Positions 17,081 to 30,484 of a stretch of 32,565 nucleotides of DNA are shown one piece after another. The stretch is taken from assembly GCA_048940645.1 (NCBI GenBank), contig JBHLOI010000036.1, positions 1-32,565 on the forward strand, given 5' to 3'. The position numbers and the translations under genes are program-made. The notes below the pieces were generated by a model. That model did no database searches. It was not told the origin of the DNA and was given only the letters and a program-made list of their open reading frames with translations. The stretch is from Promethearchaeota archaeon. Its GTDB lineage: Archaea > Asgardarchaeota > Lokiarchaeia > Sigyniarchaeales > SOKP01. Every line of letters begins with the position of its first letter. The stretch's first letter is position 1.

Positions 17081-18307
17081 ATGAATTACAAGCCGGATTT
17101 GAAGTTTATATGGATCTCTCAATTTGGGACTCTCGTTGAGATTAGAATTAAAGAAATTTCAAAAAGATTAATGGTAAAAGGAATATACCCAATTATTTTT
17201 ACCCATAAACAGCAAAGGAAAGAGAGATCGAAATCTAAACAAATTAAAAGAGACTTATTTTATTATCATTTCCGAAATCCATTGTATTTCAATTTTAATG
17301 TTAAAATCTTTAAATACTTAAGAGAATTAGTTCATAAAATTGCATTCATTTTTGGCGGAATGCCTTTTTTATATTCAGATCTTAAATCTTTTTTAAAAAA
17401 AAATGATGAAATTAAATTTATATATGCCACAGGACCTCTTTTTTTTACACATATGCTTGGATACCTTTTAAAGAAAAGATATAATAAAAAACTTGTAGTG
17501 GAATATACTGATCCTTGGTATAAAAATCCCTATTCAGTAGAAAGTAGAAATATTTTTGATAAAATAATTGATTATTCTATTGAAAAAAAAATTTTACAAT
17601 CAGCAGATATTATTGTATCTAATACTGAGTCTTTAAATCCTATACTGCAAAAAAATTTTCCTTTTATAAAGAATAAACCAATATTCTCCATAGAAGATGG
17701 ATTAAATTTACAAACACTCGATGATTTACCTAAAAAAGATGAAAGCCGTATAACGCTTACTTACGGAGGTAAGATATACGGAAGAAGAAATATATATCCC
17801 CTTTTTAAAATTATATCTGATCTAAATAAAGAACATTTTTTTGAAGATATAAAAATATTAATTAAAATTTATGGAAGTTATCCAAAAAAGTTATTTGAAA
17901 GAATTCTTGATAGTTTAAACATAAGCGATTTATTTTATTTAGGTGATTTTCTTTCAAGATCTCAATTTATAAAAGAAATTATGAAATCTGACATGGCCCT
18001 TCATATTGGGGAAAACTTAGATTACCCTACGATAGCTTTCAAAGTATGGGAGTACCTTAGTTGTAGAAAAAAAATATTATTCTTAGGTCTTGAAAGATCT
18101 TATCGTTCAGACTTTATTAGAAACCATAATTTAGGAATTGTGATTCCAATTGATAATTTAGAAAAGGGAAAAGAAATCACAAAAGAGTTATTTATGAAAA
18201 TTAAAAATAGAAATATAGATTTAACGTTTGATGAAGAACAACTAAAAGCATTCTCATGGGATAACAGAGCAGAAAAATTTATCAAAAAAATTATAAACTC
18301 TTTATAA
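17081..18307 (+). CDS. GT-B (GT4-like) glycosyltransferase
   Basis: ATGPLF, EYTDPW, YGGKIYGRRN, FKVWEYL, FSWDNRA. Confidence 0.78.
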   Translation: MNYKPDLKFIWISQFGTLVEIRIKEISKRLMVKGIYPIIFTHKQQRKERSKSKQIKRDLFYYHFRNPLYFNFNVKIFKYLRELVHKIAFIFGGMPFLYSDLKSFLKKNDEIKFIYATGPLFFTHMLGYLLKKRYNKKLVVEYTDPWYKNPYSVESRNIFDKIIDYSIEKKILQSADIIVSNTESLNPILQKNFPFIKNKPIFSIEDGLNLQTLDDLPKKDESRITLTYGGKIYGRRNIYPLFKIISDLNKEHFFEDIKILIKIYGSYPKKLFERILDSLNISDLFYLGDFLSRSQFIKEIMKSDMALHIGENLDYPTIAFKVWEYLSCRKKILFLGLERSYRSDFIRNHNLGIVIPIDNLEKGKEITKELFMKIKNRNIDLTFDEEQLKAFSWDNRAEKFIKKIINSL

Positions 18308-18314
18308 TTTTTCT

Positions 18315-18971
18315 TTACTTTTCCTTAACACATAAGATTTGAAATGCTTTTGTGGGATGATTTCTTACAAATAATTGAGTTAAGTGAGTAATAACAAACC
18401 AAAAAAATCGAGGTTTAAATTTTAATAAGCCGTATTCACCCCTTAGGAATTTCCATCCATTAATGCCGATAACTTTGAACCCTTTTTTTTTCATTTCTTT
18501 AACAGTCCATCCAGATTTATGCACCTCCCAGGGATTATTATCGTATTCTCCTTGAGGAACAAATCCATTTGTGGTGAAAATAATTAATTTCTTTTTAGCG
18601 ATTTTTTCTAATATCTTTAATAATGAATTTCCTTCTTCTTTTGTTAAATGTTCAATCAAGTCTAATGCAATTACACAATCAAATGAGTTTTCATCAAATT
18701 CTTGATTAATTTTTAAGACATCTAATTGAATATATTTGTCATGAATTTTTTCTTTCTTACTTTTTTTAAGCCATGGTTCGAATTTATCCACTCCTATACA
18801 ATAAAATTGTTTTGGAAAATGTTTAAGTGGGGAATTTGAACCACAGCCTATATCAAGAATTGTTTTACAATTTCGGAGTAAATTTCCCAATTCAGAAATA
18901 TATTCAAATTTTATAGGAAATTTTGAATATACTGTTTTATATAATTGTAGCAACTGATTTTTGATTACCAT
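18315..18971 (-). CDS. Class I SAM-dependent methyltransferase
   Basis: ILDIGCG, GVD, FDENSFDCVIALDLIEHL, HKSGW. Confidence 0.88.
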   Translation of the reverse strand: MVIKNQLLQLYKTVYSKFPIKFEYISELGNLLRNCKTILDIGCGSNSPLKHFPKQFYCIGVDKFEPWLKKSKKEKIHDKYIQLDVLKINQEFDENSFDCVIALDLIEHLTKEEGNSLLKILEKIAKKKLIIFTTNGFVPQGEYDNNPWEVHKSGWTVKEMKKKGFKVIGINGWKFLRGEYGLLKFKPRFFWFVITHLTQLFVRNHPTKAFQILCVKEK

Positions 18972-19020
18972 GGTATTTAGCTTCTTAATTTATTTTTAAA
19001 TCTATATTTATATGATACTT

Positions 19021-20502
19021 CTACTCTTTATCTTTTAACTCTTCAGAAAGCGTTCTATAAATATTTCTAATACTAATTATATTAAGAAAAAACTTAAAAT
19101 CTTCTTTAGAAAAACCCTTAAGAATATAATTGATTATAAAATATAGCAATATATCAAAAATCGCAAATAAGAGATGAATTAAGATAGAAAACTTAAATAG
19201 ACCATTAATCCATATTTGAAATAGCAATATCCCAAACATAATAAAAAAGTTTCGAAATGTACCCCAGTAAAATCTGAGATGGAACTTTTTATATATAATC
19301 GGTCTGTAAATTAATTGAATCAGAATTTTTGAAAATAAAAATGATAGGGCTCCACCATATACGCCTAAATTAAATACAAGAGGAGATATAAATAAAATCA
19401 TAAAACAGATCGAAAGAATATTTTCTATAATGGAAAATTTAGCCAAAAATTTAACCTCTCCCAATGCCTGTAATTGAACTATATTTACACAGTCAAGAGA
19501 AATAGGAATTAAAAGTAATATAAAGATAAATAAAATCTGACCAGTTAAACGGTAATCTTCACCAAATATTAGCACAAAGAAATCTGGTACATAAAGATAA
19601 GTCAAAAAAATAATAGGAAATATTAATAAATTCAATATCTTATGCGTATAATTAACAATTATAATATTTTCACTTTCTTTTCCATCACTTATATTCTTTG
19701 AGAATGTTGTAATTAATATATTTGAAATGCTAATTGTAATGATTAAAAAGTATGAAAAGAATTGTTTGGCGGAAAAGTAATTTGCGACATTACTGATGCT
19801 AGACCAATTATTTAGTAAGAGGACATCAATATTATTAGCTATAAAAATAAGACTATTTGTTATAAAAAAAGGAATACTATATCTAAAAAATTTTCTTAAA
19901 TACTCTTTATTAGGTTTCTTAAATCCTCTATTTTTTGTAAGAAATAAGCTTACTAAAAAATATGAAACGTTAGATATAAGTACTATATAAGTTAATAACC
20001 AAATATCAGATTGGAAAAAGGTTATTAACAAAACTAATAAAATAATTCTTAAAGATATAGCTGTTATTGAAGTTATAGCATTCTTAAAAACTTCCTTTTT
20101 ACTTAAAAATACTTGTTCAAAAAAACTAACCCTAAAGAATAGCATGGCAATAAAAAAAATATACACAACAAAAATTTCTCCGTTATAAATAGGAGCTAGA
20201 GGGATAAAACTTAACAAAACAATTGTATAAATCATAAATTGAATAATTCTGAAAGTTAAAAAGGTCCCATTACATATTGCTTCTTCCTCAGTATCCTTTG
20301 ACTCAGCAAAAAATTTCAAATAAGCTAATTGGATACCTAAATCATTAATAAGACTAAATGTTGTAAAAAACGATAAGATCGCTCCATAGTACCCAACAAC
20401 CTCGATATCGAAAATTATTCTAATTAAGTAAAAGAATATTAAACTTAATGCAATATTGACTATGTTTCCAACAATTAATAAAAAAATTTTCGTAGAATCC
20501 AT
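19021..20502 (-). CDS. Oligosaccharide flippase (MOP/Wzx family)
   Basis: About 14 hydrophobic segments, with VGYYG, DLGIQ, YSIPFF, NIDVLLL, VANY, FGEDY, LGVYGGA. Confidence 0.85.
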   Translation of the reverse strand: MDSTKIFLLIVGNIVNIALSLIFFYLIRIIFDIEVVGYYGAILSFFTTFSLINDLGIQLAYLKFFAESKDTEEEAICNGTFLTFRIIQFMIYTIVLLSFIPLAPIYNGEIFVVYIFFIAMLFFRVSFFEQVFLSKKEVFKNAITSITAISLRIILLVLLITFFQSDIWLLTYIVLISNVSYFLVSLFLTKNRGFKKPNKEYLRKFFRYSIPFFITNSLIFIANNIDVLLLNNWSSISNVANYFSAKQFFSYFLIITISISNILITTFSKNISDGKESENIIIVNYTHKILNLLIFPIIFLTYLYVPDFFVLIFGEDYRLTGQILFIFILLLIPISLDCVNIVQLQALGEVKFLAKFSIIENILSICFMILFISPLVFNLGVYGGALSFLFSKILIQLIYRPIIYKKFHLRFYWGTFRNFFIMFGILLFQIWINGLFKFSILIHLLFAIFDILLYFIINYILKGFSKEDFKFFLNIISIRNIYRTLSEELKDKE

Positions 20503-20573
20503 TAACTTTCAAAAAGAAAAATTTACTATAAATTTTTTTAAATAATTTAGCTATTCTTCAAATTAGATAATTA

Positions 20574-21710
20574 TTATTCTAAATTTACAAGGTATTGCAT
20601 AAGAAATTTTTTATAATCTTTCGGATCCTTGGCAGGTCTCTTTAGGTTAGACCTTGAACCCTGTTTTATTTTGACAATTAAGATAATAGGCCCTTCGGCA
20701 CTTTTTATAAATTTTATAGCCTCCTCTAATTCTTTTAAACTCTTAATTATTAAACCTGATTTATAATTAGAAGAGATAGCGATCTGTAATATATCAATTG
20801 AATTTGAATTTGTAGGTTGACCTCCTGTTGATTCATGAGCATTATTATCAAAAATAATATGCACAAAATTTAATGGGTTATATCGCCCTATTGTGGTAAA
20901 TGCACCCATTTGCATAATAGCCGCTGCATCTCCATCAAAAACAATAATTCTAGTATGTGGCTTTTCAAGTGCTATACTAAGACCAATAGAGCTGGCACAA
21001 CCCATTGAACCGATGTTATAAAAACTCTTAAAGTGATTTTTTTTTCTTGATTCTCTATATTCAAACAATTCTCTGGAAGTATATCCTGTGGTTGAAACAA
21101 CTATTTCATCTTCACCTAAATTATTCATTATTAAATTAATTACCTCTTCTCTGCTGAGAATATGTTCAATATCTTGCTTTACTCTTAAGTCATATTTTTC
21201 AAATAGATTACGCCGTATTATAAAAGCATAGGGACCACAATTTTTATTAAAATATTTTATAGCCTTATTTAGTTCTTCCTTAATTGATTTAATATTCGAT
21301 TCCAAAATACTATAAGGAATTTGAAGTGTGTCTAATAGTGATAGTGTAATTCTTCCCATTTTTTTATGTTGCGGAGCATCTTTTTTCCCAGGCTCTCCTC
21401 GCCATCCAATCATTAAAAGAAGGGGGATAGAATATACGTCAGGATCACATAGAGAAGTTAAGGGGTTTACAGCCTTACCAAGACCAGAATTTTGCATGTA
21501 AACAATACCAATTTTATTAGTGGCTAAATGATATCCTGCTGCTAAAGCAATTGCTTCGCACTCATTACATGCAACGATATGTTTTAAAATACCACCATCA
21601 TTATCTATAATGAATTTGATCCATTCCTTAAATGTTGAATCAGGAATTCCAGTAAAAAATGAAAATCCTTCATCCTTTAAAATATCAAAAAATTCTTGAC
21701 ATAAAATCAT
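20574..21710 (-). CDS. aepY: Phosphonopyruvate decarboxylase (ThDP-dependent)
   Basis: FTGIPDS, YMQNSGLG, IGWRGEPG, PQH, STTGYTSREL, GSMGCASS, DGD...NNAHESTGGQ. Clustered with PEP mutase. Confidence 0.93.
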   Translation of the reverse strand: MILCQEFFDILKDEGFSFFTGIPDSTFKEWIKFIIDNDGGILKHIVACNECEAIALAAGYHLATNKIGIVYMQNSGLGKAVNPLTSLCDPDVYSIPLLLMIGWRGEPGKKDAPQHKKMGRITLSLLDTLQIPYSILESNIKSIKEELNKAIKYFNKNCGPYAFIIRRNLFEKYDLRVKQDIEHILSREEVINLIMNNLGEDEIVVSTTGYTSRELFEYRESRKKNHFKSFYNIGSMGCASSIGLSIALEKPHTRIIVFDGDAAAIMQMGAFTTIGRYNPLNFVHIIFDNNAHESTGGQPTNSNSIDILQIAISSNYKSGLIIKSLKELEEAIKFIKSAEGPIILIVKIKQGSRSNLKRPAKDPKDYKKFLMQYLVNLE

Positions 21711-21738
21711 AACAATCAGCTCAACTTAAATATTGTTT

Positions 21739-22455
21739 TCATATTACTGAAAAATATTTTCTAATTACCTCTAAATCTTCAAAATCGTCAATTTCCATAC
21801 AGTGAATGTCGGTAATATAAATAGGTTTTAAAATTAATTCATTTAATATCTCATTTAAAGCATCTTCAGCATAGCAATATACCTTATTCTGCTTTATAAA
21901 TTTTTCAATTTGATTAAGCCAAGTTTTAAAAAACTGTTTTGAAAGTTTGTATAAAGGTGCTAAAAATGCGCTTTTAGGATCAAAAATTTCAACTCCTATT
22001 TTAGTTATTCTCTCATCAATTATTAGAGCTTTAAAATCTTTTTTAGGGATTTCAATTTCTTTATTCACAAGCACACAATTTTTTTCTTCAGAATTAAGTA
22101 TTTGTTCTAAGCTTAAAATTGAAAATATTAAGTCTCCATGTAATAGAATTACATCATCATTAATAAAATCTTTAAGTAAATGAATAGAATATATATAGTT
22201 TGTTTTCTCATATATTGGATTATGTATATATTGTACGTTCAAGGTTGGATAATTCTCACTGATATGACTTTTTATCTTCTCTTCAAAAGGGCCAGTTAGC
22301 ATAACTAAATCTATTAAATTGCACAAAATTAGATTTTTTAATTGAAGATCTAAAATAGTTTCATCATTAGTAATCTTAATGAGACATTTAGGATTATTTT
22401 CCGTTAAATATCCTAATCTTTTTCCAACTCCAGCATTTAAAATGACTGCTTTCAT
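21739..22455 (-). CDS. Phosphonate/phosphocholine cytidylyltransferase (PntC/LicC-like NTP transferase)
   Basis: ILNAGVGKRLGYLTENNPKCL, NPIYEKTNYIYS, LLHGDL, MEIDDFEDL. Overlaps the upstream reductase gene by ATGA. Confidence 0.85.
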   Translation of the reverse strand: MKAVILNAGVGKRLGYLTENNPKCLIKITNDETILDLQLKNLILCNLIDLVMLTGPFEEKIKSHISENYPTLNVQYIHNPIYEKTNYIYSIHLLKDFINDDVILLHGDLIFSILSLEQILNSEEKNCVLVNKEIEIPKKDFKALIIDERITKIGVEIFDPKSAFLAPLYKLSKQFFKTWLNQIEKFIKQNKVYCYAEDALNEILNELILKPIYITDIHCMEIDDFEDLEVIRKYFSVI

Positions 22456-23588
22456 TTAATCTCCTCTAAAATCTTTCTGAGTTGAACTTCGGTCAATAAT
22501 CGCGGATTATTTTTTACCCGATTTGGAGTAAATCCATTTCTAACTATGAGGTCAATATCCTCTGACGAATTTATCCCTAAATCGCTTAATTTAGTTTCTA
22601 AATTTATGTGTTTCATAATATATATGATTCTTTCTTTAGCATCTCGGAAATCGGAGGCACCAATAATAGATAGTAATCTATTCATTATATCTCTAACAAA
22701 ATTCACGCCCCTAGGGTCTAAAACATCATCATGATCAACCTCTGAATTAAAAACAATCATAGAAGGTAAAGTTAAAGCAACAGCATGTCCATGGGGGACA
22801 TTAAAATATGATGTGATAGGGTATGAAATAGCGTGGCAAGCAGTTGTTTTTGTTATATTTATTGCTTTCCCAGCATAATTGGCAGCAATTGCCATATTAT
22901 ACAATGATTTTTTGTTTTGATTAATACTTGCTCCAAAAATATTCTTCATAATTAACTTAATTGCTTTTTTAGCATACTTTCTGGATTCTTCTGTAGAATT
23001 TACATTCCAAAATGACTCAATTGCTTGTGTTAATGCATCCATAGACGAATATGTAATAATTTTTTTAGGTAGAGTTAACATGAAATGAGGATCGATGATT
23101 ACATAATTGGGCTGCATGAACTCTGGACTTGCTAAGGAATATTTTGTTTTCCCAATATAAACAACAGCAAAATGAGTTGCTTCACTACCAGAACCTACTG
23201 TAGTTGGAATACGAATTAAAGGAAACCCTTTTCTAATAATCCTAGCATCTCCTTTGATTAGATCTTCTGGATTGCCGTTATTTGTTGATAATATTGAAAT
23301 AGATTTACCCATATCAATGACAGAACCCCCTCCAACAGCAACTATTACATCATATTTATCCCTTTTAAAAATTTCTAATCCTTTTTTTATATCCTTAAGT
23401 TTTGGATTGGGAGTAAAATCATTGAAATGATAAAATTTGAAATTGGCAATTATTTTTAAAATAGAATTTTTTATTTCATCCTTTTCGAAGGATTTCTTTC
23501 CTGTTATTAAAAATATATTACTAAAATTATTCTGACGTAGTATCTTTCTCAAGTTTCTAATAGAATTAAATCCTCGATATTCAATCAT
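22452..23588 (-). CDS. Phosphonoacetaldehyde reductase (iron-dependent ADH family, PhpC/FomC-like)
   Basis: GGGSVIDMGK, IPTTVGSGSEAT, DALTQAIES, TTACHAISYP, PHGHAV. Lies between pepM and ppd. Confidence 0.88.
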   Translation of the reverse strand: MIEYRGFNSIRNLRKILRQNNFSNIFLITGKKSFEKDEIKNSILKIIANFKFYHFNDFTPNPKLKDIKKGLEIFKRDKYDVIVAVGGGSVIDMGKSISILSTNNGNPEDLIKGDARIIRKGFPLIRIPTTVGSGSEATHFAVVYIGKTKYSLASPEFMQPNYVIIDPHFMLTLPKKIITYSSMDALTQAIESFWNVNSTEESRKYAKKAIKLIMKNIFGASINQNKKSLYNMAIAANYAGKAINITKTTACHAISYPITSYFNVPHGHAVALTLPSMIVFNSEVDHDDVLDPRGVNFVRDIMNRLLSIIGASDFRDAKERIIYIMKHINLETKLSDLGINSSEDIDLIVRNGFTPNRVKNNPRLLTEVQLRKILEEIK

Positions 23589-23654
23589 TTTTTAGGAGCA
23601 ATTTCAATTCAAAATTAAATATGTTTAAATATTTTTTCCATATCTCTTAAAAAG

Positions 23655-25337
23655 TTATAACCATTTCTCCGCAAATTCTACATCTTTTTTATTATGAATT
23701 TCAAACCAGCCTTTATATACTTCTAATAAATGTACTTTAAAACCTCTGTCAATCATTTCTTGAATAAAGTCAGTAAATGAAGCTTTTTCAAAAGAATCTG
23801 CCTCATGGAACGGTCCTCTATGATTTGTTAAACAATCATAATAGATTTTTCGAATAATATTTACACCATATTCTGAAAAATAAGCGATTCCAATATACTC
23901 GTAATCAGCCATATTTTTATCAATATATTTCCCGATTCTTATAATTTCATTATCTTTTCGGTATAACATCCTCTGTTCTTTTGTTGGTTTATTTTTTGTC
24001 AAAACTAAATCAAGCTTTTTATCAATTTCATGTTTATGATATGCATATGAATTATCTACAACCAAAACGATATCATGTTTTACATTTAATAAATTGTTAA
24101 TTATTTGCTCGTTGAATAGTATATCTGAATTTAAGTAAATAAAGCCATTAATCATATCCTCCTTTGCTTTAAATAAAGAATATAAAATATAGGTATCATC
24201 ATAATCATCATTAATTATATATTTAACTCCCTCAATGTTAACTAACTCTTTTTTATACCCTTTAACGACAGTTACATCTTTAATTCCACAATTTTTTAAC
24301 AGATCAATTTGTCTCTGGAGTATAGGTTTGCCCTTGATATCTATTATTGATTTTGGAATGTCAAAAATCGGATCTTTACCAGCAGCTGGAATAATTACTC
24401 GAATCTTACCTTTTGTGTACTTTAAATCTTTTTCCCTTACTTCTAAAAATCCAACATCTTCGAAAATCGTTCTAACTGGGCTGCATAATGATTCTGCTTC
24501 AAAGGCTCTCCTATTCTTTAAAATGTTTAAAGCAGTCTCTTTCATAATCTTGTGAGCAGATCGTAATAAATGATTTGCATATATTACAATATTAAATCCA
24601 TGGTTTCTTAGTTCATCTTCAGTTACTATGTTATAAGTCGTTGGTACGCATATTAGTGGTTTCTTCAAATCCATTTCATAATATTTCTTTGCAAAATTAA
24701 AAATATCACTTGGACTATCATCTTTAGAATGAATCATTATCGCATCTGCTCCAGCATTTAAATATTTTTTTGCCCTAAATATTGCATCCTCTAATCCTGA
24801 ACCAGAAATGAAACTTTCAATTCTGGCTGCGATCATGAAGTCTGGTGAGAGTTGGATATTTTTACCTCTTTCAATTTTTATGGCGAATATATCAGGATCC
24901 TCTTGAGTCTGGTTTGAAGCAGGATCTAAACTATTTCTTTTAGGAAAAGTTTTATCCTCAATAATTACCATGGAAACGCCCATATCTTCTAAATGTCTAA
25001 CAAAATACTCAAAATTAGTAGCATCTCCCCCAGTATCACCATCAACAATTAATGGTTTTGTAGAACTGTTCAGGATTTGCCTTATTGTTTCATATCTCGA
25101 TTCAGGTCCAATTACATTAGCATCGGGATATCCTTTAGCAGCGCTTTCAGTTAAACTACTTTCCCAAATCGCATCGAATTCATAAATCTCATCTTCTTCG
25201 TTTATCTTAATATTATTAGCTATAATTGCACTTAAACCATTATGAGCTTCAATAACTCTGACAAAATTTTTTTCGTGAAGTATTTTTTTTAAGGTTCCTC
25301 TTCTCTTTTCTGGTGCAATCCTGTTAAGTAAGGCCAT
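23655..25337 (-). CDS. pepM: Phosphoenolpyruvate mutase fused to C-terminal NTP-transferase domain
   Basis: Diagnostic EDKxxxxxNS motif (EDKTFPKRNS), plus EAHNGLS, DGDTGG, ARIES, VPTTY, IYANHLLR. C-terminal IIPAAG...PK...NSDILF...WFEIH. Confidence 0.95.
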   Translation of the reverse strand: MALLNRIAPEKRRGTLKKILHEKNFVRVIEAHNGLSAIIANNIKINEEDEIYEFDAIWESSLTESAAKGYPDANVIGPESRYETIRQILNSSTKPLIVDGDTGGDATNFEYFVRHLEDMGVSMVIIEDKTFPKRNSLDPASNQTQEDPDIFAIKIERGKNIQLSPDFMIAARIESFISGSGLEDAIFRAKKYLNAGADAIMIHSKDDSPSDIFNFAKKYYEMDLKKPLICVPTTYNIVTEDELRNHGFNIVIYANHLLRSAHKIMKETALNILKNRRAFEAESLCSPVRTIFEDVGFLEVREKDLKYTKGKIRVIIPAAGKDPIFDIPKSIIDIKGKPILQRQIDLLKNCGIKDVTVVKGYKKELVNIEGVKYIINDDYDDTYILYSLFKAKEDMINGFIYLNSDILFNEQIINNLLNVKHDIVLVVDNSYAYHKHEIDKKLDLVLTKNKPTKEQRMLYRKDNEIIRIGKYIDKNMADYEYIGIAYFSEYGVNIIRKIYYDCLTNHRGPFHEADSFEKASFTDFIQEMIDRGFKVHLLEVYKGWFEIHNKKDVEFAEKWL

Positions 25338-25434
25338 TTTTTTATAAAAGTTCTGTATTCTATTTTATTAATAAAAATGTAAAGAATATAAAATATATTA
25401 GTGGACAATTTAATTGTGAGTAAAAAGATTATTA

Positions 25435-26655
25435 TCAATATTCTATTTCAAGGAAATCTAAAATTCTTCTGATTGAATTTCCATCTGTATATCTATTAAA
25501 TCTATCTCTAACTTGTTTTCTTTTTTGCTCAAACTCTTTTGTTATATTCTCAATATTTTTAATTGCATTTGTTAAATCTTTAAAATTATATAAAAGTGGT
25601 CCTGGAGCTATATCTTCCAGTTTATAATACATTCCTCTAATTTTTTTATATCTCTCAAGGTCATAAGGAAAAAGTAATATTGGTCTATTTAATAATGAGA
25701 AATCAAGCATCGTTGATGAATAATCAGTAATGAGGATATCTGTAATTATATATAATTCTTGAATATCTGCTGATTTAGGTACGAGTTTAAGATTTTCATA
25801 CTCTTTAAAATTAACATCTTGAACGAAATAATGCCCTTTTAGGAGGAATAGAGTTTTCATATCTTTAAGCATTTTATTTAATTCATGCAATTCTTTCTTT
25901 GAAATCGAAAACTTTAAACTGTGATCTTCTCTAAATGTGGGACAATACAGAATTATTTGATTTACACTTTCAGGGATTTGATATTTGGTTTTTAAATTTT
26001 CGATAAAATTTTCATCCTCATTAAATAATATATCATTTCTCGGGTAACCTAAAGCTAATATTTTCTCTTTTGGCACTTTAAAGGCAGAACTTAATATATT
26101 ATGCTCTAAGTCATCTCTAGTAGGAGTTAGGATATAATTAAGATAATCATTATATTTTAATTTTAATTTAAAATATCTACCCCACTTTTTATATACAAGA
26201 AATTCAAGATCCTCATCAAAAATAATTTTCTTTATAGGTGTACCATGCCAAGTTAGAATTGTTGTCGATCTCGGTGAAAATTCAATTGGTAGTACATCAT
26301 AAATACCATGTGTGATGAAAATAAATCTTGCTTTTCGTAGTAATTTTATTGCCATAATATTTAATGTGTGGATAGCATTATATCCCTTTAATCTAAGTTC
26401 TTTAACTAATTTCCGTGATTTTGCGACCCATACAACCTTATAATCTGAATGTTGATTTAAATATTCAAATAGATATTTGGTATTATCATGATATAGATTT
26501 CCTCCATACCCCCCCATAATAATTAATTTCTCATCAACTTTATTACTAAAAAGTTTGGATAAAAGTTTAAAGCCAAATGGTATAATAATATCTCTCAAAA
26601 ACTTATAATATTTATTATTTCTCAAAAAGGAGTATTTCTCAAGTTGCAAAACCAT
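25435..26655 (-). CDS. CDP-glycerol glycerophosphotransferase (TagB/TagF) family protein
   Basis: WHGTPIKK, GYPRND, YCPTFR, KGHY, ITDYSS. Confidence 0.9.
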   Translation of the reverse strand: MVLQLEKYSFLRNNKYYKFLRDIIIPFGFKLLSKLFSNKVDEKLIIMGGYGGNLYHDNTKYLFEYLNQHSDYKVVWVAKSRKLVKELRLKGYNAIHTLNIMAIKLLRKARFIFITHGIYDVLPIEFSPRSTTILTWHGTPIKKIIFDEDLEFLVYKKWGRYFKLKLKYNDYLNYILTPTRDDLEHNILSSAFKVPKEKILALGYPRNDILFNEDENFIENLKTKYQIPESVNQIILYCPTFREDHSLKFSISKKELHELNKMLKDMKTLFLLKGHYFVQDVNFKEYENLKLVPKSADIQELYIITDILITDYSSTMLDFSLLNRPILLFPYDLERYKKIRGMYYKLEDIAPGPLLYNFKDLTNAIKNIENITKEFEQKRKQVRDRFNRYTDGNSIRRILDFLEIEY

Positions 26656-26806
26656 CTGACATTATCACTCAATTCATTTTTAAGGTGGTCTATTTTATTT
26701 GTTTTATAGTAAATCTATTATCTTTAGAAATAAATTCAAAAGATTGTAATCATTAATAGTAATTAAAATTAATTTTAAAATAAAAAAGCTTAGTTAATTA
26801 GCATTT

Positions 26807-27370
26807 TCACACATTATTAGTTAACCGTTCGTTTGGTAGATAACCCATATCATTTAAAGCTTTTAATACAATTTGTTTACTTTCTTCTACTGTTTGTTTA
26901 TCAGTTTCAACAATTATATCTGCTTGATCTGGTTCTTCAAATGGGTGGTCTATTCCTGTGAAATCTTTAATTTCTCCTGCTCTTGCTTTAGCATACATAC
27001 CTTTTATATCTCTTTCTTCACACACTTCGAGTAAACACTTAACATAAACGAGTATATAATCACCAATTTCATTTCTTGAATATGCCCGAATCTTATTATA
27101 TGGTGATACAAAAGAGGCAAGGACAGCAACACCATTTCGGGTTAAAAGCTTAGCAACAAACGTGACTCTCTCAATATTCATATTTCGATCCTCTTCAGTG
27201 AATCCCAAATCACGTGTTAAACTCTTTCTAACAATATCTCCATCTAAACGTTCAACTTTCATTCCTCTTTTTTTCAAATCGTCAGCAACAGCATCTGCAA
27301 GTACAGATTTCCCTGAGCAAGGAAGCCCTGTAAACCATAACGTAAATCCTTTATGTTCTATTTTTTTCAC
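26807..27370 (-). CDS. cysC: Adenylyl-sulfate (APS) kinase
   Basis: WFTGLPCSGKS, LDGDIVR, DLGFTEEDR, RDIKGMYAKA, FTGIDHPFEEP. Confidence 0.96.
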   Translation of the reverse strand: MKKIEHKGFTLWFTGLPCSGKSVLADAVADDLKKRGMKVERLDGDIVRKSLTRDLGFTEEDRNMNIERVTFVAKLLTRNGVAVLASFVSPYNKIRAYSRNEIGDYILVYVKCLLEVCEERDIKGMYAKARAGEIKDFTGIDHPFEEPDQADIIVETDKQTVEESKQIVLKALNDMGYLPNERLTNNV

Positions 27371-27375
27371 CTTTT

Positions 27376-28764
27376 TTAAAATTCTATTACATTTCCTTCC
27401 ATATCTTTTGGAATATCAAATCCTAAAATATTTAGGCAAGTTGGAGCAATGTCTAATATGTTCTTGGTGCCTAAATCCTTTCCAATTTTACTTCCTGGAT
27501 TATAAATAATATATATTCCGTAATAATCATGTACAGCATCATCTGGTCCCGTATCATTTTCTTTTAAATACATAGATTCATAACCTACTGTACCAGCAGA
27601 CCTCCAATTTAAATCATCAAAATATACCATTAAATCAGGTGGATCTCCCCGAATTATTGCATAAAAATCTTCAGGTTTATAGACTTTTGTATTCATAGTT
27701 TTACCAGAGTCATCCTTTATTGATTTTATCTTTTCTGCTATAACTTCCCTCATTTTTTCATAGTCTTCCTTTTTAATGATACCCTGAGGTTCTCTTCCTT
27801 CAACGTTTAAAAAAATCCTAGCATAATAACCACCCCAACCCCAAGCATATGTTCTGTTCCAATCTATTATTGCATCATCTAATCTAGTTCTTGGTTCGGG
27901 TTTCTCTTTAAATTTTAGTAATCCAAGTTCTTCAAAAGCCATATTAACGCATATTAAACCTTTCATTGCTTTTGCTCCATGATCGGATGCTACAATAACA
28001 GTTGTATTATCATCCAACAAATCCAAAATTTCCCCTACTTCTTCATCTAAATATTTATAATATTTACGCATTTCAAGCTCGAATTTATTTCCAGGAACGT
28101 ATTTGTTATGTTTTTTATCAAAATATTTCCAAAAAGCGTGATGAAATCTATCTAAACCTATTATAACAAATTGGAAAAAGTCCCAATCTTTATTTTTCAT
28201 CAAATATTTGATTGTTTTAAATTGAATCTTAGTCATTTCATATATTTGCTTTAACAAGGCTTTTTTATTTTCTACTCTAAAATTTGCATCTAAAATGTAA
28301 TTGCCAACTTTCTCTTCTATTTCTTGTTTCAGTTCAGGGGGATATGTATAATTTGAGTCTGTATCTGGTGCTATAAAGCCAGCAATCAAGTTACCATTAA
28401 TCAATTTGACTGGATATGTGGGAGGTACTCCAATAATAATGCTTTTTAACCCGTTTCTGCCAATTATATCCCAAATGGTAGGTTCTTTTACTGAATTTGA
28501 AGTGGCTATCCAAAAATCATTATAAGCAAATTTCTTTCGATGTCTAAATCCATAAATCCCAAGAGTACCAGCTTTTTTACCTGTTGCCATAACCATCCAT
28601 GCTGGTATTGTAATTGGAGGATCAGAACTTCTTAATTTTCCATATACTCCATTTTCCATTAATTTTCTAATATTTGGGCAATCATCGATGAAGTCATTAA
28701 ATAAAGTTCTTGGTGTAGCACAATCTAAACCAATAAGGACCAATTTCTTTTTTTTTTTACTCAT
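27376..28764 (-). CDS. Alkaline-phosphatase-superfamily (NPP/COG3379-like) metalloenzyme with Thr nucleophile
   Basis: IGLDCAT, SSDPPITIPAW, LDRFHHAFW, ASDHG, DAVH, ILDIAPT. No CxPxR sulfatase motif. Confidence 0.88.
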   Translation of the reverse strand: MSKKKKKLVLIGLDCATPRTLFNDFIDDCPNIRKLMENGVYGKLRSSDPPITIPAWMVMATGKKAGTLGIYGFRHRKKFAYNDFWIATSNSVKEPTIWDIIGRNGLKSIIIGVPPTYPVKLINGNLIAGFIAPDTDSNYTYPPELKQEIEEKVGNYILDANFRVENKKALLKQIYEMTKIQFKTIKYLMKNKDWDFFQFVIIGLDRFHHAFWKYFDKKHNKYVPGNKFELEMRKYYKYLDEEVGEILDLLDDNTTVIVASDHGAKAMKGLICVNMAFEELGLLKFKEKPEPRTRLDDAIIDWNRTYAWGWGGYYARIFLNVEGREPQGIIKKEDYEKMREVIAEKIKSIKDDSGKTMNTKVYKPEDFYAIIRGDPPDLMVYFDDLNWRSAGTVGYESMYLKENDTGPDDAVHDYYGIYIIYNPGSKIGKDLGTKNILDIAPTCLNILGFDIPKDMEGNVIEF

Positions 28765-28809
28765 AATGATACCAACACAAGGCTCTTATTTTTATAATTT
28801 ACATAAAAA

Positions 28810-29958
28810 TCATGTAACAAATGGATTTTTATACTTTAGAATCACTTCTGCTACTTCCTTACGCATAACTTCTGGATCAGGTGGTTTTCCGGCCTTTAAA
28901 GCATCTCTAATCTCACGACCTGCAAAGAAATTCTGCATTTCTGGAGGATGGGGACAAATCTTATCATTCACAACCGCATCACACTTTTTACATTTTGAGA
29001 AGGAGCGAAATTTAATTGGTTCAATACCTAAATCTGGAAATTTATCAAAAATGAAATGAGCATCATAAGGGCCATAGTAATCACCTACTCCCGCATGATC
29101 TCTTCCAATAATTATATGTGTACATCCAAAATTCTTTCTTGCAATTGCATGAAATATTGCTTCTTTTGGCCCTGCATATCTCATCTCTGTTTCGAATGTA
29201 CTCATTACTACACGATTTTTAGGATAATATTCTTTAATTAATACTTTATATGCTTCGATAATTACATCATCTAAGAAATCACCTTGTTTTTTCTTACCGA
29301 TTACAGGATTTATGAACAAACCATCTACATAAGTTAAACCTGCTTTTTGGACATATTCATGTCCCAAATGTGGGGGGTTTCTTGTTTGAAATGCCACAAC
29401 TCGTTCCCATCTCATTTCTTTGAAAAGAACTCTAGTTTCTATAGGTTTCAGGTCTATTTCTGGAAATGTAGCTCTAGGTTCATTGATTAAAAATATTTGC
29501 CCTCCCATTAGTTTTTCTTTATAGTTTAAGACCCTGTTCACTCCTGGATGATCTCTTTCTAAAGTTCCATATGTTTTGCTAGCATAATTTTTTTTGTCAT
29601 AATCATAGATATCTTCTACTCTCATTAGTGCAATAGGCTTATTCTCACTATTTGTTAAGACGATCTGATCATCGCTTTTGATATTCTTGAGTTCACTTTC
29701 TGAAACATCTAAAGTTATAGGAAAAGGCCAAGGAATATCACTTTCCAAATACATTGACTCAAGAACATAATTAAAATCATTTTCATTCATAAAGCCTTCT
29801 AATGGACTAAATACTCCAAAAGCAATGTTTTTAATCACTTTTAATGTTTCAGGTCTTACTTTAATTGTTTCAAATTCGCTAATTTGACTTAAAATTCTTT
29901 CTTTTTCAAAATTAGGTAAAACTTTATTTATTAAAGTACCTCCATGTGGCGAAATCAT
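28810..29958 (-). CDS. sat: Sulfate adenylyltransferase (Sat-type ATP sulfurylase)
   Basis: PHGGTL, FSPLEGFM, QTRNPPHLGHE, MRYAGPKEA, GRDHAGVG, and Zn site CKKC...CPH. Confidence 0.97.
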   Translation of the reverse strand: MISPHGGTLINKVLPNFEKERILSQISEFETIKVRPETLKVIKNIAFGVFSPLEGFMNENDFNYVLESMYLESDIPWPFPITLDVSESELKNIKSDDQIVLTNSENKPIALMRVEDIYDYDKKNYASKTYGTLERDHPGVNRVLNYKEKLMGGQIFLINEPRATFPEIDLKPIETRVLFKEMRWERVVAFQTRNPPHLGHEYVQKAGLTYVDGLFINPVIGKKKQGDFLDDVIIEAYKVLIKEYYPKNRVVMSTFETEMRYAGPKEAIFHAIARKNFGCTHIIIGRDHAGVGDYYGPYDAHFIFDKFPDLGIEPIKFRSFSKCKKCDAVVNDKICPHPPEMQNFFAGREIRDALKAGKPPDPEVMRKEVAEVILKYKNPFVT

Positions 29959-30006
29959 AATTTTTTCCTTCTTTAATATGTTGTGATTATTATATAAAGC
30001 TAAATT

Positions 30007-30246
30007 TTAATCAATATATCCCAAATCTCGTAATCTCTGCTTTACCTTCTCTTCTTCTTCCTTTGTAAAGGCTTGTTTTGATCTCTCCTCTTCCTCTATA
30101 GAGGAAAGAACTTGCCTAAGAACATACGTTACATAACTAGAGACCGAAGAAAACCCAGTTCCTTTCATTCGCTCTTTTATTTTCTCTGAAAGAACTTTAG
30201 GAATTGATACAGTTGTATATTCAACTTTATGATCATCATCTGACAT
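30007..30246 (-). CDS. Ribbon-helix-helix (CopG/MetJ-like) protein with C-terminal EEKVKQRLRDLGY tail
   Basis: YTTVSIP beta-ribbon, a helix, then GFSSVSSYVTYVLR as helix 2. First gene of the sat run. Confidence 0.85.
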   Translation of the reverse strand: MSDDDHKVEYTTVSIPKVLSEKIKERMKGTGFSSVSSYVTYVLRQVLSSIEEEERSKQAFTKEEEEKVKQRLRDLGYID

Positions 30247-30318
30247 TATAACTCATTTTAAAATATAATTATATTTAATTAAATAGAATTAAAATATATT
30301 AAAAAATCTTACTAAATA

Positions 30319-30333
30319 CCCTAACATCTAGGG
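30319..30333. promoter_or_regulatory. Candidate operator, inverted repeat CCCTA-N5-TAGGG in the divergent RHH/GT2 intergenic region
   Basis: A GC-rich palindrome within otherwise very AT-rich DNA, about 70-90 nt upstream of the RHH start. Short enough to arise by chance. Confidence 0.25.
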
Positions 30334-30484
30334 ATTCTTATTAGCTTCAATAAAATAAATGTTTTTCAGTAATAAAATTTTGAAAATTTGATTCAAATAT
30401 TTATTAAGTAAAGGAGATAATAAATAAATATATACATTAAATATCTATAGGGCAACTCTTTAAATTACTGACATACTTAAGATT

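What the first reader, a model, noticed from the sequence alone, without database searches (positions are those of the whole stretch)
19021..26655. Apparently complete 2-hydroxyethylphosphonate glycan-decoration pathway in a probable Asgard archaeon
Seen: co-oriented TagF-like, pepM, Fe-ADH, PntC-like, ppd and flippase genes with gaps under 100 nt, inside a glycosyltransferase locus. Established: PepM makes the C-P bond, Ppd yields phosphonoacetaldehyde, PhpC/FomC-type ADH yields 2-HEP, and PntC enzymes make CMP-phosphonates. Inference: the route is PEP -> PnPy -> PnAA -> 2-HEP -> CMP-HEP -> surface glycan or lipid. The window has no AEP transaminase and no HEPD/MpnS, so the product should be HEP rather than AEP or methylphosphonate. 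The archaeal precedent I know is Nitrosopumilus. I am not aware of a characterised Asgard phosphonoglycan.
Basis: partly seen in the sequence, partly recalled or inferred. Interest (0 to 1): 0.85.

Follow-up and report, generated by a model that had tools for sequence, protein, structure and literature searches.

The report
Asgard archaeal hydroxyethylphosphonate surface-decoration cassette
An Asgard (Lokiarchaeia) genome carries an intact gene set predicted to make the carbon-phosphorus compound 2-hydroxyethylphosphonate, activate it with CTP and attach it to a surface sugar chain; the set is a swappable module that recurs in about one in ten Asgard genomes sampled, apparently including a cultured one in which the prediction can be tested.

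Summary
Six intact, co-oriented minus-strand genes (19021-26655; gaps 97, 66, -4, 28 and 71 nt) encode a TagF-like transferase, PepM, an Fe-ADH, a LicC/PntC-like nucleotidyltransferase, Ppd and a Wzx-type flippase, inside a glycosyltransferase island.

PepM and Ppd pass NCBIfam equivalog cut-offs, and PepM has the EDKxxxxxNS motif. The ADH carries the Tyr reported as diagnostic of PhpC-type phosphonoacetaldehyde reductases. No AEP transaminase passes its cut-off anywhere in the genome. The host is Asgard, in the same order as the genome I identify as Ca. Lokiarchaeum ossiferum.

- PepM is fused to a C-terminal NT-like domain whose nucleotide loop is divergent. The stand-alone NTase is the canonical one.
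- The functional unit is a swappable block of about 6.3 kb (Ppd to TagF-like). Near-identical islands in pepM-negative congeners carry an NTase+MFS or inositol-phosphate module there, each with its own TagF-like allele.
- The flippase, the methyltransferase and sat/AP/cysC are conserved flank.
- The core cassette is not unique: 42 of 400 Asgard genomes have PepM.

All chemistry is inferred. I rate it a new member of the known phosphonyl-tailoring pathway. The TagF-like phosphonyl transfer step has no characterised example that I could find.

The parts
25435..26655 (-). TagF/TarF-like CDP-alcohol phosphotransferase homologue (406 aa). Proposed CMP-HEP:glycan 2-hydroxyethylphosphonyl transferase.
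   Evidence: PF04464 265.8 bits. Best PDB match is S. epidermidis TagF 3l7i, E 1e-43, with both catalytic His conserved (TWHGTP, GHY). It is only 56-57% identical to the allele in congeners whose flanks are 86-96% identical. It clusters by neighbouring donor cassette in the tree. It is the only PF04464 gene in the genome, which has no LicD and no TagD.
24459..25292 (-). PEP mutase domain of the 560-aa fusion protein (gene 23655-25337).
   Evidence: TIGR02320 340.7 bits, over the cut-off of 319.55. The EDKTFPKRNS motif starts at residue 127.
23655..24405 (-). C-terminal NT-like (PF12804) domain fused to PepM. Its nucleotide loop is divergent and its role is unresolved.
   Evidence: PF12804 32 bits against a cut-off of 27, and LicC 1jyk E 7e-12. 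The loop reads IIPAAGxxxxFxxPK: it lacks the GxRL arginine and five residues, and is variable among 17 Asgard orthologues. EIH replaces E(I/L)D. The same 'EIH' subtype is widespread among PepM fusions in the 1.8-billion-protein library.
22452..23588 (-). PhpC-like group III (Fe/Zn) alcohol dehydrogenase. Proposed phosphonoacetaldehyde reductase making HEP.
   Evidence: PF00465 and PF25137. The best NCBIfam hit is TIGR03405 Phn_Fe-ADH, below its cut-off. D184-x3-Q188, H252, Y256 and H266 align to the metal site of 6jko/6jkp, with Tyr where sulfoacetaldehyde reductase has Phe. PMC13576164 reports this Tyr as strictly conserved in PhpC. It is invariant in 19 Asgard cassette ADHs.
21739..22455 (-). 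Stand-alone LicC/PntC-family nucleotidyltransferase (238 aa). Proposed HEP cytidylyltransferase.
   Evidence: Canonical AGVGKRL...PK and EIDD motifs. PDB matches are LicC 2e-9 and Ari-PntC 6pd1 3e-9. It has His106 where PntC has the AEP-amine-binding Glu104. The Asgard AEP-type cassettes keep Glu, and their NTase hits 6pd1 at 1e-37. The gene overlaps the ADH gene by 4 nt.
20574..21710 (-). Phosphonopyruvate decarboxylase (Ppd).
   Evidence: TIGR03297 435.6 bits against a cut-off of 312.5. The sulfopyruvate decarboxylase models score only 88-118 bits.
20564..26900 (.). Swappable block: the four biosynthetic genes plus the TagF-like allele.
   Evidence: blastn against pepM-negative congeners G013 and G263 shows flanks at 86-96% identity. 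Nothing aligns across 20564-25429. Identity is only 66-71% across 25430-26999. In those genomes the block is replaced by an NTase254 + MFS pair.
19021..20502 (-). Wzx/Polysacc_synt flippase. Conserved flank and the likely exporter of the lipid-linked glycan; not cassette-specific.
   Evidence: PF01943 69.8 bits. It is 88% identical in pepM-negative G013 and has no homologue next to the cassette in other genera.
18315..18971 (-). Class I SAM methyltransferase. Conserved flank, role unknown.
   Evidence: Methyltransf_11. It is 86% identical in pepM-negative G013.
26807..29958 (-). cysC, AP-superfamily protein and sat (PAPS module). Conserved flank, independent of pepM.
   Evidence: It is 90-95% identical (protein) in pepM-negative G263 and G013 and absent from other pepM loci.

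Best explanation
The block at about 20.6-26.9 kb is a phosphonyl-tailoring module sitting in a conserved Lokiarchaeial surface-glycan island.

Proposed route:
1. PepM isomerises PEP to phosphonopyruvate.
2. Ppd decarboxylates it irreversibly to phosphonoacetaldehyde.
3. The PhpC-like ADH reduces that to 2-hydroxyethylphosphonate (HEP).
4. The stand-alone LicC/PntC-family nucleotidyltransferase condenses HEP with CTP to give CMP-HEP.
5. The TagF-like enzyme transfers the 2-hydroxyethylphosphonyl group from CMP-HEP to a hydroxyl of a lipid-linked oligosaccharide built by the neighbouring GT2/GT4 enzymes, releasing CMP. This mirrors what TagF does with CDP-glycerol.
6. The Wzx-type flippase exports the decorated unit.

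The NT-like domain fused to PepM has lost the canonical nucleotide loop, so it is more likely regulatory, structural or of altered specificity than the main cytidylyltransferase.

Shown by sequence: family membership and catalytic or diagnostic motifs of all five enzymes, absence of an AEP transaminase, and modular swapping of the block together with its TagF-like allele. Inferred: every activity, the nucleotide used, the donor of the TagF-like enzyme, and the acceptor.
For: Enzyme identities:
- PepM 340.7 bits (cut-off 319.55) and Ppd 435.6 bits (cut-off 312.5). EDKxxxxxNS is present in all 22 Asgard PepMs examined.
- The ADH aligns to 6jko with D-x3-Q/H/H metal ligands and has Tyr256 where sulfoacetaldehyde reductase has Phe. 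That Tyr is reported as strictly conserved in PhpC and H-bonded to the phosphonate. It is invariant in 19 orthologues.
- NTase238 has canonical LicC loops.
- The TagF-like protein has both catalytic His conserved.

HEP rather than AEP:
- The best class-V aminotransferase in the genome scores 172 bits against a cut-off of 360.8, and lies on another contig.
- NTase238 has His at the position of the AEP-amine-binding Glu104 of PntC.
- Asgard cassettes that carry an Aminotran_5 gene instead of the ADH keep Glu there, and their NTase hits Ari-PntC at 1e-37.

TagF-like as the transferase:
- It lies inside the low-identity swapped block, while the flanks are 90-96% identical.
- Within the genus, TagF-like alleles form well-supported clades matching the adjacent donor module: HEP, NTase+MFS, or inositol-1-P synthase+NTase.
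- In the family, PepM and PF04464 co-occur: both 20, PepM only 11, TagF-like only 16, neither 88.
- The genome has one PF04464 gene, no LicD and no TagD over cut-off.

Precedent and context:
- Bacterial Pnt clusters also combine a Ppm-fused NTase with a separate PntC, and the separate one was the active AEP cytidylyltransferase.
- A HEP conjugate has been isolated from Stackebrandtia exopolysaccharide.
- No PhnJ and no phosphonatase over cut-off, so a catabolic role is unlikely.
Against: - No activity has been measured for any of the proteins.
- The ADH scores only 186.6 bits on TIGR03405 (cut-off 423.7), almost tied with lactaldehyde reductase at 177.9. It has Gln rather than His as the fourth metal ligand, as in sulfoacetaldehyde reductase.
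- NTase238 is only distantly related to the characterised PntCs (E about 1e-9), and no PF12804 enzyme acting on HEP is known to me.
- TagF-like genes also occur in 16 pepM-negative genomes of the family.
- HEP-linked TagF-like proteins of another genus (g12) fall in a different clade.
- Eleven PepM-positive family genomes have no PF04464 hit. The genome identified as L. ossiferum has the cassette but neither TagF-like nor LicD. Phosphonyl transfer therefore does not always use this family.
- The acceptor is unknown.
- HEPD/MpnS-type enzymes could only be excluded within the window, not genome-wide.
- The genome is 89.6% complete.
Confidence: 0.6

Rival explanations
1. HEP is made and cytidylylated, but the TagF-like enzyme uses a conventional CDP-alcohol donor. 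The phosphonate would then go elsewhere: to a lipid headgroup, a small exported molecule, or a glycan through a different transferase such as an alkaline-phosphatase/sulfatase-fold enzyme.
For: - There are two NT-type domains in the block.
- TagF-like genes occur in 16 pepM-negative genomes of the family.
- In genus g22 and in the genome identified as L. ossiferum the cassette sits beside an NTase+MFS pair, and in the g22 loci whose flank I annotated also a sulfatase-like gene, with no adjacent TagF-like gene.
- Lockwood et al. note arylsulfatase-like genes in phosphonate neighbourhoods, including the archaeal ones.
Against: - No TagD over cut-off in the genome, and no polyol-phosphate-forming gene in the block.
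- The fused NT domain lacks the canonical nucleotide loop, so NTase238 is the only canonical activating enzyme in the block.
- The TagF-like allele is swapped together with the donor genes and sorts by donor module within the genus.
- The window's AP-fold gene is 92-94% identical in pepM-negative congeners, so it is not tied to pepM.
Confidence: 0.2
2. HEP is only an intermediate. An unrecognised enzyme converts HEP or CMP-HEP further before or after attachment. Candidates are the class I methyltransferase at 18315-18971 or a HEPD/MpnS-like enzyme elsewhere in the genome.
For: - In fosfomycin, phosphinothricin and methylphosphonate pathways HEP is an intermediate.
- A methyltransferase lies two genes downstream on the same strand.
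- HEPD/MpnS could not be searched genome-wide.
Against: - No cupin/HEPD-like, radical-SAM or epoxidase gene is in the window.
- The methyltransferase is conserved at 86% identity in pepM-negative G013, so it is not cassette-linked.
- The four-gene core recurs without any further conserved tailoring gene.
Confidence: 0.1
3. The ADH is not a phosphonoacetaldehyde reductase, and the pathway ends in a different phosphonate derived from PnAA or PnPy.
For: TIGR03405 is below its cut-off and nearly tied with lactaldehyde reductase. The metal site has Gln as in sulfoacetaldehyde reductase.
Against: - The PhpC-diagnostic Tyr is invariant.
- The ADH gene is within the PepM/Ppd/NTase core in 19 loci, and in the fused-type (own-family) loci, as here, it overlaps the NTase gene by 4 nt.
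- The ADH is replaced by Aminotran_5 in the AEP-type variant of the cassette, which is the pattern expected of a branch-point enzyme acting on PnAA.
Confidence: 0.05
4. The contig is bacterial contamination or a chimeric assembly, so the pathway does not belong to an Asgard archaeon.
For: The genome is a MAG with 3.7% estimated contamination.
Against: - The cassette is flanked by an Arf/Roc-type GTPase and conserved hypothetical genes in the same order in many independent MAGs of the family. Two of those records are titled Promethearchaeota / Promethearchaeia.
- The island is 86-96% identical in congeners.
- GC content is uniform at 25-32% across the window.
- The closed 6,035,313-bp genome identified as Ca. 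L. ossiferum B35 has a homologous cassette.
Confidence: 0.01

Closest known systems
Bacterial phosphonyl-tailoring (Pnt) pathway: Ppm-Ppd-AEPT-PntC plus a LicD-like transferase (Rice et al. 2019, PMC6697681)
   Same: The logic is the same: the C-P bond is made by Ppm (often fused to a PF12804 NT domain), Ppd follows, a separate LicC-like cytidylyltransferase activates the phosphonate, and the gene context is cell-surface glycan synthesis. Clusters with both a fused and a separate NTase are described there.
   Different: - The branch enzyme here is an ADH (HEP) rather than AEPT (AEP).
- The NTase has His in place of the amine-binding Glu104.
- The candidate transferase is TagF-like rather than LicD-like.
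- The host is an Asgard archaeon.
Early fosfomycin pathway in Streptomyces: Fom1 (CyTase-PepM), Fom2 (Ppd), FomC (ADH) giving CMP-HEP
   Same: The chemistry up to CMP-HEP is the same, with PepM fused to a nucleotidyltransferase-type domain. A second Asgard cassette type, including the one in the genome identified as L. ossiferum, has the Fom1-like N-terminal PF01467 CyTase-PepM architecture.
   Different: - The window's fusion is C-terminal, PF12804-type and has a divergent loop.
- There are no Fom3, Fom4 or FomD homologues.
- The context is glycan synthesis, not an antibiotic cluster.
HEP-containing phosphonoglycans of Actinobacteria: the Stackebrandtia nassauensis exopolysaccharide HEP conjugate, as cited in PMC8942020
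   Same: A PhpC-type cluster yields HEP attached to an exopolysaccharide. This is the only isolated HEP-glycan precedent named in that inventory.
   Different: It is bacterial.
Nitrosopumilus maritimus methylphosphonate cluster (archaeal precedent)
   Same: An archaeal pepM/ppd/phpC set with nucleotidyltransferase, glycosyltransferase and sulfatase-like neighbours, thought to esterify a phosphonate to a polysaccharide.
   Different: That cluster has MpnS, which converts HEP to methylphosphonate, and no equivalent is in the window. It belongs to a different phylum. Its sequences were not compared here.
TagF/TarF/TagB CDP-glycerol:poly(glycerophosphate) glycerophosphotransferases of Gram-positive teichoic acid synthesis
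   Same: The catalytic domain is the same (PF04464, 265.8 bits), both catalytic His residues are conserved, and its size matches the single-domain TarF/TagB enzymes.
   Different: - The score is far below the NCBIfam TarF, TarB and TarL equivalog cut-offs (201 against 550, and so on).
- No TagD or CDP-glycerol source is evident.
- The proposed donor is a CMP-phosphonate, which has not been demonstrated for any member that I could find.

Membership tests
PEP mutase (PepM/Ppm) | Score over the TIGR02320 equivalog cut-off | tested here: met
   340.7 bits against 319.55; 342.9 bits in the genome search.
PEP mutase (PepM/Ppm) | EDKxxxxxNS catalytic motif, which separates Ppm from other isocitrate-lyase superfamily members | tested here: met
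   EDKTFPKRNS starts at residue 127. The motif definition comes from PMC6697681.
Phosphonopyruvate decarboxylase (Ppd/AepY) | Score over the TIGR03297 equivalog cut-off, with both TPP-binding domains | tested here: met
   435.6 bits against 312.5. PF02775 and PF02776 are both present.
PhpC-type phosphonoacetaldehyde reductase | Membership of the group III Fe-ADH fold (PF00465) with metal ligands | tested here: met
   PF00465 132 bits and PF25137 114 bits. D184, Q188, H252 and H266 align to the Zn site of 6jko/6jkp. The fourth ligand is Gln rather than the His of P. fungorum PhpC.
PhpC-type phosphonoacetaldehyde reductase | Conserved Tyr four residues after the first metal His, H-bonding the phosphonate (Phe in sulfoacetaldehyde reductases) | tested here: met
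   Tyr256 aligns opposite Phe in 6jko. It is invariant in 19 Asgard orthologues. The criterion comes from PMC13576164.
PhpC-type phosphonoacetaldehyde reductase | Score over the TIGR03405 (Phn_Fe-ADH) equivalog cut-off | tested here: not met
   186.6 bits against 423.7. It is the best NCBIfam hit but nearly tied with lactaldehyde reductase. PhpC enzymes are described as very divergent.
PhpC-type phosphonoacetaldehyde reductase | NAD(P)H-dependent reduction of phosphonoacetaldehyde | not testable with these tools
   Needs an enzyme assay.
PntC (phosphonate-specific LicC-like cytidylyltransferase) | LicC-type fold with the GxGxRL...PK loop and the C-terminal E-x-D motif | tested here: met
   NTase238 reads AGVGKRLGYLTENNPK and EIDD. 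PF00483 and PF12804 hits.
PntC (phosphonate-specific LicC-like cytidylyltransferase) | Glu104 (Tde/Ari-PntC numbering) contacting the amine of AEP | tested here: not met
   His106 aligns to Glu104 of 6pd1 (criterion). This fits a substrate without an amine, so I file the enzyme as PntC-like and not as an AEP-type PntC.
PntC (phosphonate-specific LicC-like cytidylyltransferase) | Preference for CTP and a phosphonate substrate | not testable with these tools
   Needs an enzyme assay.
Ppm-fused PF12804 nucleotidyltransferase domain | Pfam PF12804 over its gathering score | tested here: met
   32.0 bits against 27.
Ppm-fused PF12804 nucleotidyltransferase domain | Canonical nucleotide-binding loop with Arg, and the acidic E-x-D motif | tested here: not met
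   The loop is shortened and variable, and EIH replaces EID in 17 Asgard fusions. Many library representatives show the same.
TagF/TarF/TagB glycerophosphotransferases | PF04464 domain with the two catalytic His residues (H444/H584 of S. epidermidis TagF, numbering from my memory) | tested here: met
   265.8 bits. TWHGTP and GHY align to the TagF His positions. The second position reads Ala in entry 3l7m, i.e. the mutated residue.
TagF/TarF/TagB glycerophosphotransferases | Equivalog-level similarity to TarF, TarB or TarL | tested here: not met
   201 against 550, 79 against 500 and 89 against 1000 bits.
TagF/TarF/TagB glycerophosphotransferases | A CDP-glycerol supply (TagD/TarD) in the genome | tested here: not met
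   The best TIGR01518 hit is 42.7 bits against a cut-off of 165.4. The genome is 89.6% complete.
Asgard archaea (Promethearchaeota), class Lokiarchaeia | Genome-level kinship and syntenic context with named Asgard genomes | tested here: met
   - The nearest PepM loci lie in records titled Promethearchaeota / Promethearchaeia.
- A same-order relative, G171, is one 6,035,313-bp contig, matching the published size of Ca. L. ossiferum B35.
- An Arf/Roc GTPase lies on the contig.
- The taxonomy of the window's own record was not shown to me.

The most novel reading that the evidence does not exclude
The TagF-like enzyme may not add just a single cap. It may use the free 2-hydroxyl of HEP as the next acceptor and polymerise CMP-HEP into a poly(2-hydroxyethylphosphonate) chain. 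That would be a teichoic-acid analogue whose backbone contains C-P bonds, displayed on an Asgard cell surface. More broadly, Lokiarchaeia would swap 'headgroup supply + cytidylyltransferase + matched TagF-like enzyme' cassettes (HEP, AEP, inositol phosphate, an imported compound) at one site of their glycan island, much as bacteria swap serotype-determining genes.
Probability: 0.1. Interest if true: 0.85.

Novelty: new member of a known kind. Interest (0 to 1): 0.55.

Why it matters
The surface chemistry of Asgard archaea is almost unknown, although their surfaces mediate the syntrophic contacts central to models of eukaryote origins.

A phosphonate decoration would resist phosphatases and could affect cell-cell contact, virus adsorption and phosphorus budgets in sediments.

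The full-text library I could search holds no paper linking phosphonate biosynthesis with Asgard archaea.

The prediction is directly testable. A genome that matches the cultured Ca. Lokiarchaeum ossiferum B35 in size and contig number carries a homologous PepM/Ppd/ADH/NTase cassette.

For phosphonate enzymology the locus offers three candidates with no characterised example that I could find:
- a HEP-type PF12804 cytidylyltransferase, with His in place of Glu104;
- a TagF-family CMP-phosphonate transferase;
- a widespread PepM-fused NT-like domain that lacks the canonical nucleotide loop.

Tried and rejected
- **Promoter/terminator scan of 18000-30400**. It found 75 promoter-like sites against 80 expected from shuffles. 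The model is bacterial, so it says nothing about operon limits. A T-run followed by an A/T-rich stretch lies between cysC and the TagF-like gene, but in 27% GC DNA that is not significant.
- **The search for related loci** with the single protein returned only three loci. A taxon-labelled PepM phylogeny, and therefore any statement about a donor lineage, was not possible. The representative library carries no taxonomy.
- **HEPD/MpnS** could not be searched genome-wide, because I had neither a profile accession nor a referenced sequence. Only the window's ORFs were checked by Pfam.
- **Considered and rejected:**
  - The AP-fold gene at 27376-28764 as the phosphonate transferase. It is 92-94% identical in pepM-negative congeners.
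  - A sulfonate pathway (sulfopyruvate decarboxylase plus sulfoacetaldehyde reductase) next to the PAPS genes. Ppd scores 435.6 bits on TIGR03297 against 88-118 on the sulfopyruvate models, PepM is bona fide, and the ADH has Tyr rather than Phe.
  - A catabolic HEP role. There is no PhnJ and no phosphonatase over cut-off.
  - The flippase and methyltransferase as cassette members. They are conserved flank.
- **HEP-linked TagF-like proteins are not one clade across genera**. Donor specificity cannot be read from the tree alone.
- **No structure prediction or complex prediction was run**, because none would have decided substrate specificity.

Full report
**Observation.**
The window has 25-32% GC throughout. 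ORF listing shows an uninterrupted minus-strand run from 29958 to 18315. The six genes of the finding are intact and separated by 97, 66, -4, 28 and 71 nt.

Pfam and NCBIfam give:
- 25435-26655: Glyphos_transf, TagF-like (265.8 bits).
- 23655-25337: PEP mutase (TIGR02320 340.7 bits, cut-off 319.55) plus a C-terminal NTP_transf_3 domain.
- 22452-23588: Fe-ADH.
- 21739-22455: a 238-aa NTP_transferase.
- 20574-21710: phosphonopyruvate decarboxylase (TIGR03297 435.6 bits, cut-off 312.5).
- 19021-20502: a Polysacc_synt flippase.

A class I methyltransferase lies on the downstream side. On the upstream side are cysC, an alkaline-phosphatase-fold protein and sat. The rest of the window holds GT2, GT4, epimerase and UDP-GlcNAc 2-epimerase genes, and a 655-aa Arf/Roc-type GTPase. 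The one omission is that PepM is a fusion protein.

**Host.**
The window is contig C64 of a 3.83-Mb MAG that is 89.6% complete with 3.7% estimated contamination. The closest PepM fusions outside it (68-69% identity) lie in records titled 'Promethearchaeota archaeon' and 'Promethearchaeia archaeon'. In those records the cassette sits next to the same hyp759 / hyp261 / hyp163 / Arf-GTPase / amino-acid-kinase block as in the window.

A same-order relative, G171, is a single contig of 6,035,313 bp. That is exactly the published genome size of Ca. Lokiarchaeum ossiferum B35 (PMC9834061). Three pepM-negative congeners keep the same island without the cassette, and two others have flanks 86-96% identical to the window. 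The contig is therefore Asgard (Lokiarchaeia) and not chimeric.

**The enzymes.**

*PepM.* It has EDKTFPKRNS, the Ppm-specific motif defined in PMC6697681. All 22 Asgard PepMs I extracted have the motif.

*ADH.* Its best PDB match is 6jko/6jkp (E 1.5e-37). PMC13576164 identifies that entry as sulfoacetaldehyde reductase and uses it as the structural reference for PhpC. In the alignment the window protein has D184-x3-Q188, H252 and H266 at the metal site. It has Tyr256 where the sulfoacetaldehyde reductase has Phe. The paper reports this Tyr as strictly conserved in PhpC enzymes and H-bonded to the phosphonate. It is invariant in all 19 Asgard cassette ADHs. Against this, the TIGR03405 score (186.6) is well below its cut-off (423.7), and the fourth metal ligand is Gln rather than His.

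*Stand-alone NTase.* It carries the canonical LicC loop (AGVGKRLGYLTENNPK) and an EIDD motif. Its best PDB matches are LicC and the PntC domain of Ari1348.

*TagF-like protein.* It aligns over its whole length to the catalytic domain of S. epidermidis TagF, with both catalytic histidines conserved.

**HEP rather than AEP.**
Genome-wide, the best hit to either AEP-transaminase model is a generic class V aminotransferase on another contig (172 bits against 360.8).

A natural control exists inside the same family. In genus g21 the cassette lacks the ADH and carries an Aminotran_5 gene instead. Its NTase matches Ari-PntC at 1e-37 and keeps Glu at the position of Glu104. Rice et al. place that residue against the amine of AEP. 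All NTases of the ADH-type cassettes, including the window's, have His there. So the branch-point enzyme and the specificity residue of the NTase change together. This is what is expected if the ADH-type cassettes activate HEP.

**Two NT domains.**
The domain fused to PepM reads IIPAAGKDPIFDIPK. Compared with LicC it lacks five residues, including the GxRL arginine. The loop is variable among 17 Asgard orthologues, and the C-terminal acidic motif is EIH instead of E(I/L)D. Free-standing paralogues of this domain in other Asgard loci have canonical motifs.

An exhaustive search of 1.84 billion representatives shows that C-terminal PepM-NT fusions fall into a canonical type (…RGxxLGxLT…PK, W-x-D-x-D) and this divergent 'EIH' type. 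The divergent type is widespread. I therefore take NTase238 as the working cytidylyltransferase. That matches the bacterial Pnt clusters, where the separate PntC was the active enzyme. The role of the fused domain stays open.

**Distribution.**
PepM over cut-off occurs in 42 of 400 genomes sampled from the phylum, 30 of 134 in the family and 8 of 41 in the genus besides the window's own genome.

Two architectures exist:
- The C-terminal PF12804 fusion, as in the window.
- A Fom1-like N-terminal PF01467 CyTase-PepM, found in G171 (the genome I identify as L. ossiferum), other families, and one congener.

In 19 of the 22 related loci mapped, PepM is accompanied by Ppd, the Fe-ADH and an NTase238 orthologue. 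The L. ossiferum paper contains no word beginning with 'phosphon'. No paper in the searchable library combines phosphonate biosynthesis terms with Asgard.

**The functional unit and the transferase.**
blastn of the window against pepM-negative congeners G013 and G263 gives 86-96% identity on both flanks: GT4b, GT4c, methyltransferase and flippase on one side, and cysC, AP-fold, sat, GT2c and GT2d on the other. Nothing aligns across 20564-25429. Identity is only 66-71% across 25430-26999, which covers the TagF-like gene.

In place of the four biosynthetic genes those genomes carry a canonical PF12804 NTase and an MFS transporter. Other congeners pair a TagF-like gene with two myo-inositol-1-phosphate-synthase-like genes and a PF12804 NTase, or with another NTase.

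In a maximum-likelihood tree, the TagF-like proteins of the genus form strongly supported clades matching these neighbouring modules. In the family, PepM and PF04464 co-occur more often than not: both 20, PepM only 11, TagF-like only 16, neither 88. Related genomes are not independent, so no statistic is attached to those counts.

The window's genome has one PF04464 gene, no LicD and no TagD over cut-off.

Taken together, the TagF-like enzyme most likely takes the cytidylyl-activated product of its neighbouring module as donor, which here is CMP-HEP.

Limits on this conclusion:
- HEP-linked TagF-like proteins of genus g12 belong to another clade.
- Genus g22 and G171 have the cassette without an adjacent TagF-like gene.
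- One other family has a LicD-like gene beside the cassette instead.

**What is not part of it.**
The flippase, the methyltransferase and the sat/AP-fold/cysC genes are conserved flank in pepM-negative congeners and are absent from pepM loci of other genera. The flippase is still the obvious exporter for whatever the island builds. No PhnJ and no phosphonatase over cut-off is present. This fits a producer rather than a consumer.

**Verdict.**
All five enzymes belong to known families and the logic is that of the known phosphonyl-tailoring pathway. A HEP-exopolysaccharide precedent exists in Stackebrandtia, and an archaeal pepM/ppd/phpC precedent exists in Nitrosopumilus. I therefore classify it as a new member of a known kind.

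Three elements go beyond the known:
- The lineage.
- The His-type NTase.
- The TagF-family candidate for phosphonyl transfer, swapped together with its donor module.

The most novel reading still open is that the TagF-like enzyme polymerises HEP.

Earlier notes of this scan on the same window had already raised the degenerate fused loop and the TagF-like transferase idea. I tested both here independently.

Noticed in passing
L079:4927-7027 and L080:4756-6846 (pepM-negative congeners); also L009:3147-5261, L064:11494-13777, L077:5516-7768: A canonical PF12804 NTase, the closest paralogue of the PepM-fused domain, is paired with an MFS transporter. In some genomes this pair replaces the phosphonate cassette, and in others (genus g22 and the genome identified as L. 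ossiferum) it accompanies it. It could be an uptake-and-activation (salvage) route for an external headgroup, possibly a phosphonate.
   Followed up: partly
L078:3986-8321 and L081:3945-8289 (congeners G007, G017): Two myo-inositol-1-phosphate-synthase-like genes, a PF12804 NTase and a TagF-like gene lie together. This suggests a CDP-inositol-dependent inositol-phosphate decoration.
   Followed up: partly
L056:1-20000 (G198, genus g21) and L057: An AEP-type variant of the cassette: PepM-NT, Ppd, a PntC-like NTase with Glu104, and Aminotran_5. It sits with four TagF-like domains (one ORF is a tandem double domain of 815 aa) and a radical SAM/SPASM gene.
   Followed up: partly
window 23655-24405; representatives P0006-P0083: C-terminal NT-like domains fused to PepM fall into a canonical type and a widespread 'EIH' type with a degenerate nucleotide loop. 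The second type may not be a nucleotidyltransferase at all.
   Followed up: partly
window 4567-6846 (-): A 759-aa protein with no Pfam hit is conserved next to the island in all congeners checked. It is only 38-66% identical among them, far more divergent than its neighbours, as expected of a surface- or glycan-related protein.
   Followed up: partly
L053 (G261:C151, same genus): A CyTase(PF01467)-PepM gene sits among GT2 and epimerase genes. No Ppd, ADH or NTase238 homologue lies within about 9 kb, which suggests a different, phosphonopyruvate-derived product.
   Followed up: no
G073:C15:135688-136284, next to PepM at 138441: A LicD-like gene lies beside the HEP-type cassette in another Asgard family. 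Asgard cassettes therefore pair with at least two transferase families.
   Followed up: no
window 26807-29958 (-): The sat / alkaline-phosphatase-fold / cysC module is 90-95% identical (protein) in congeners whether or not they have pepM. It is an independent, conserved part of the island.
   Followed up: partly
window 1147-3114 (-): A 655-aa Arf/Roc-type small GTPase is conserved in synteny across the family (57-82% identity).
   Followed up: no
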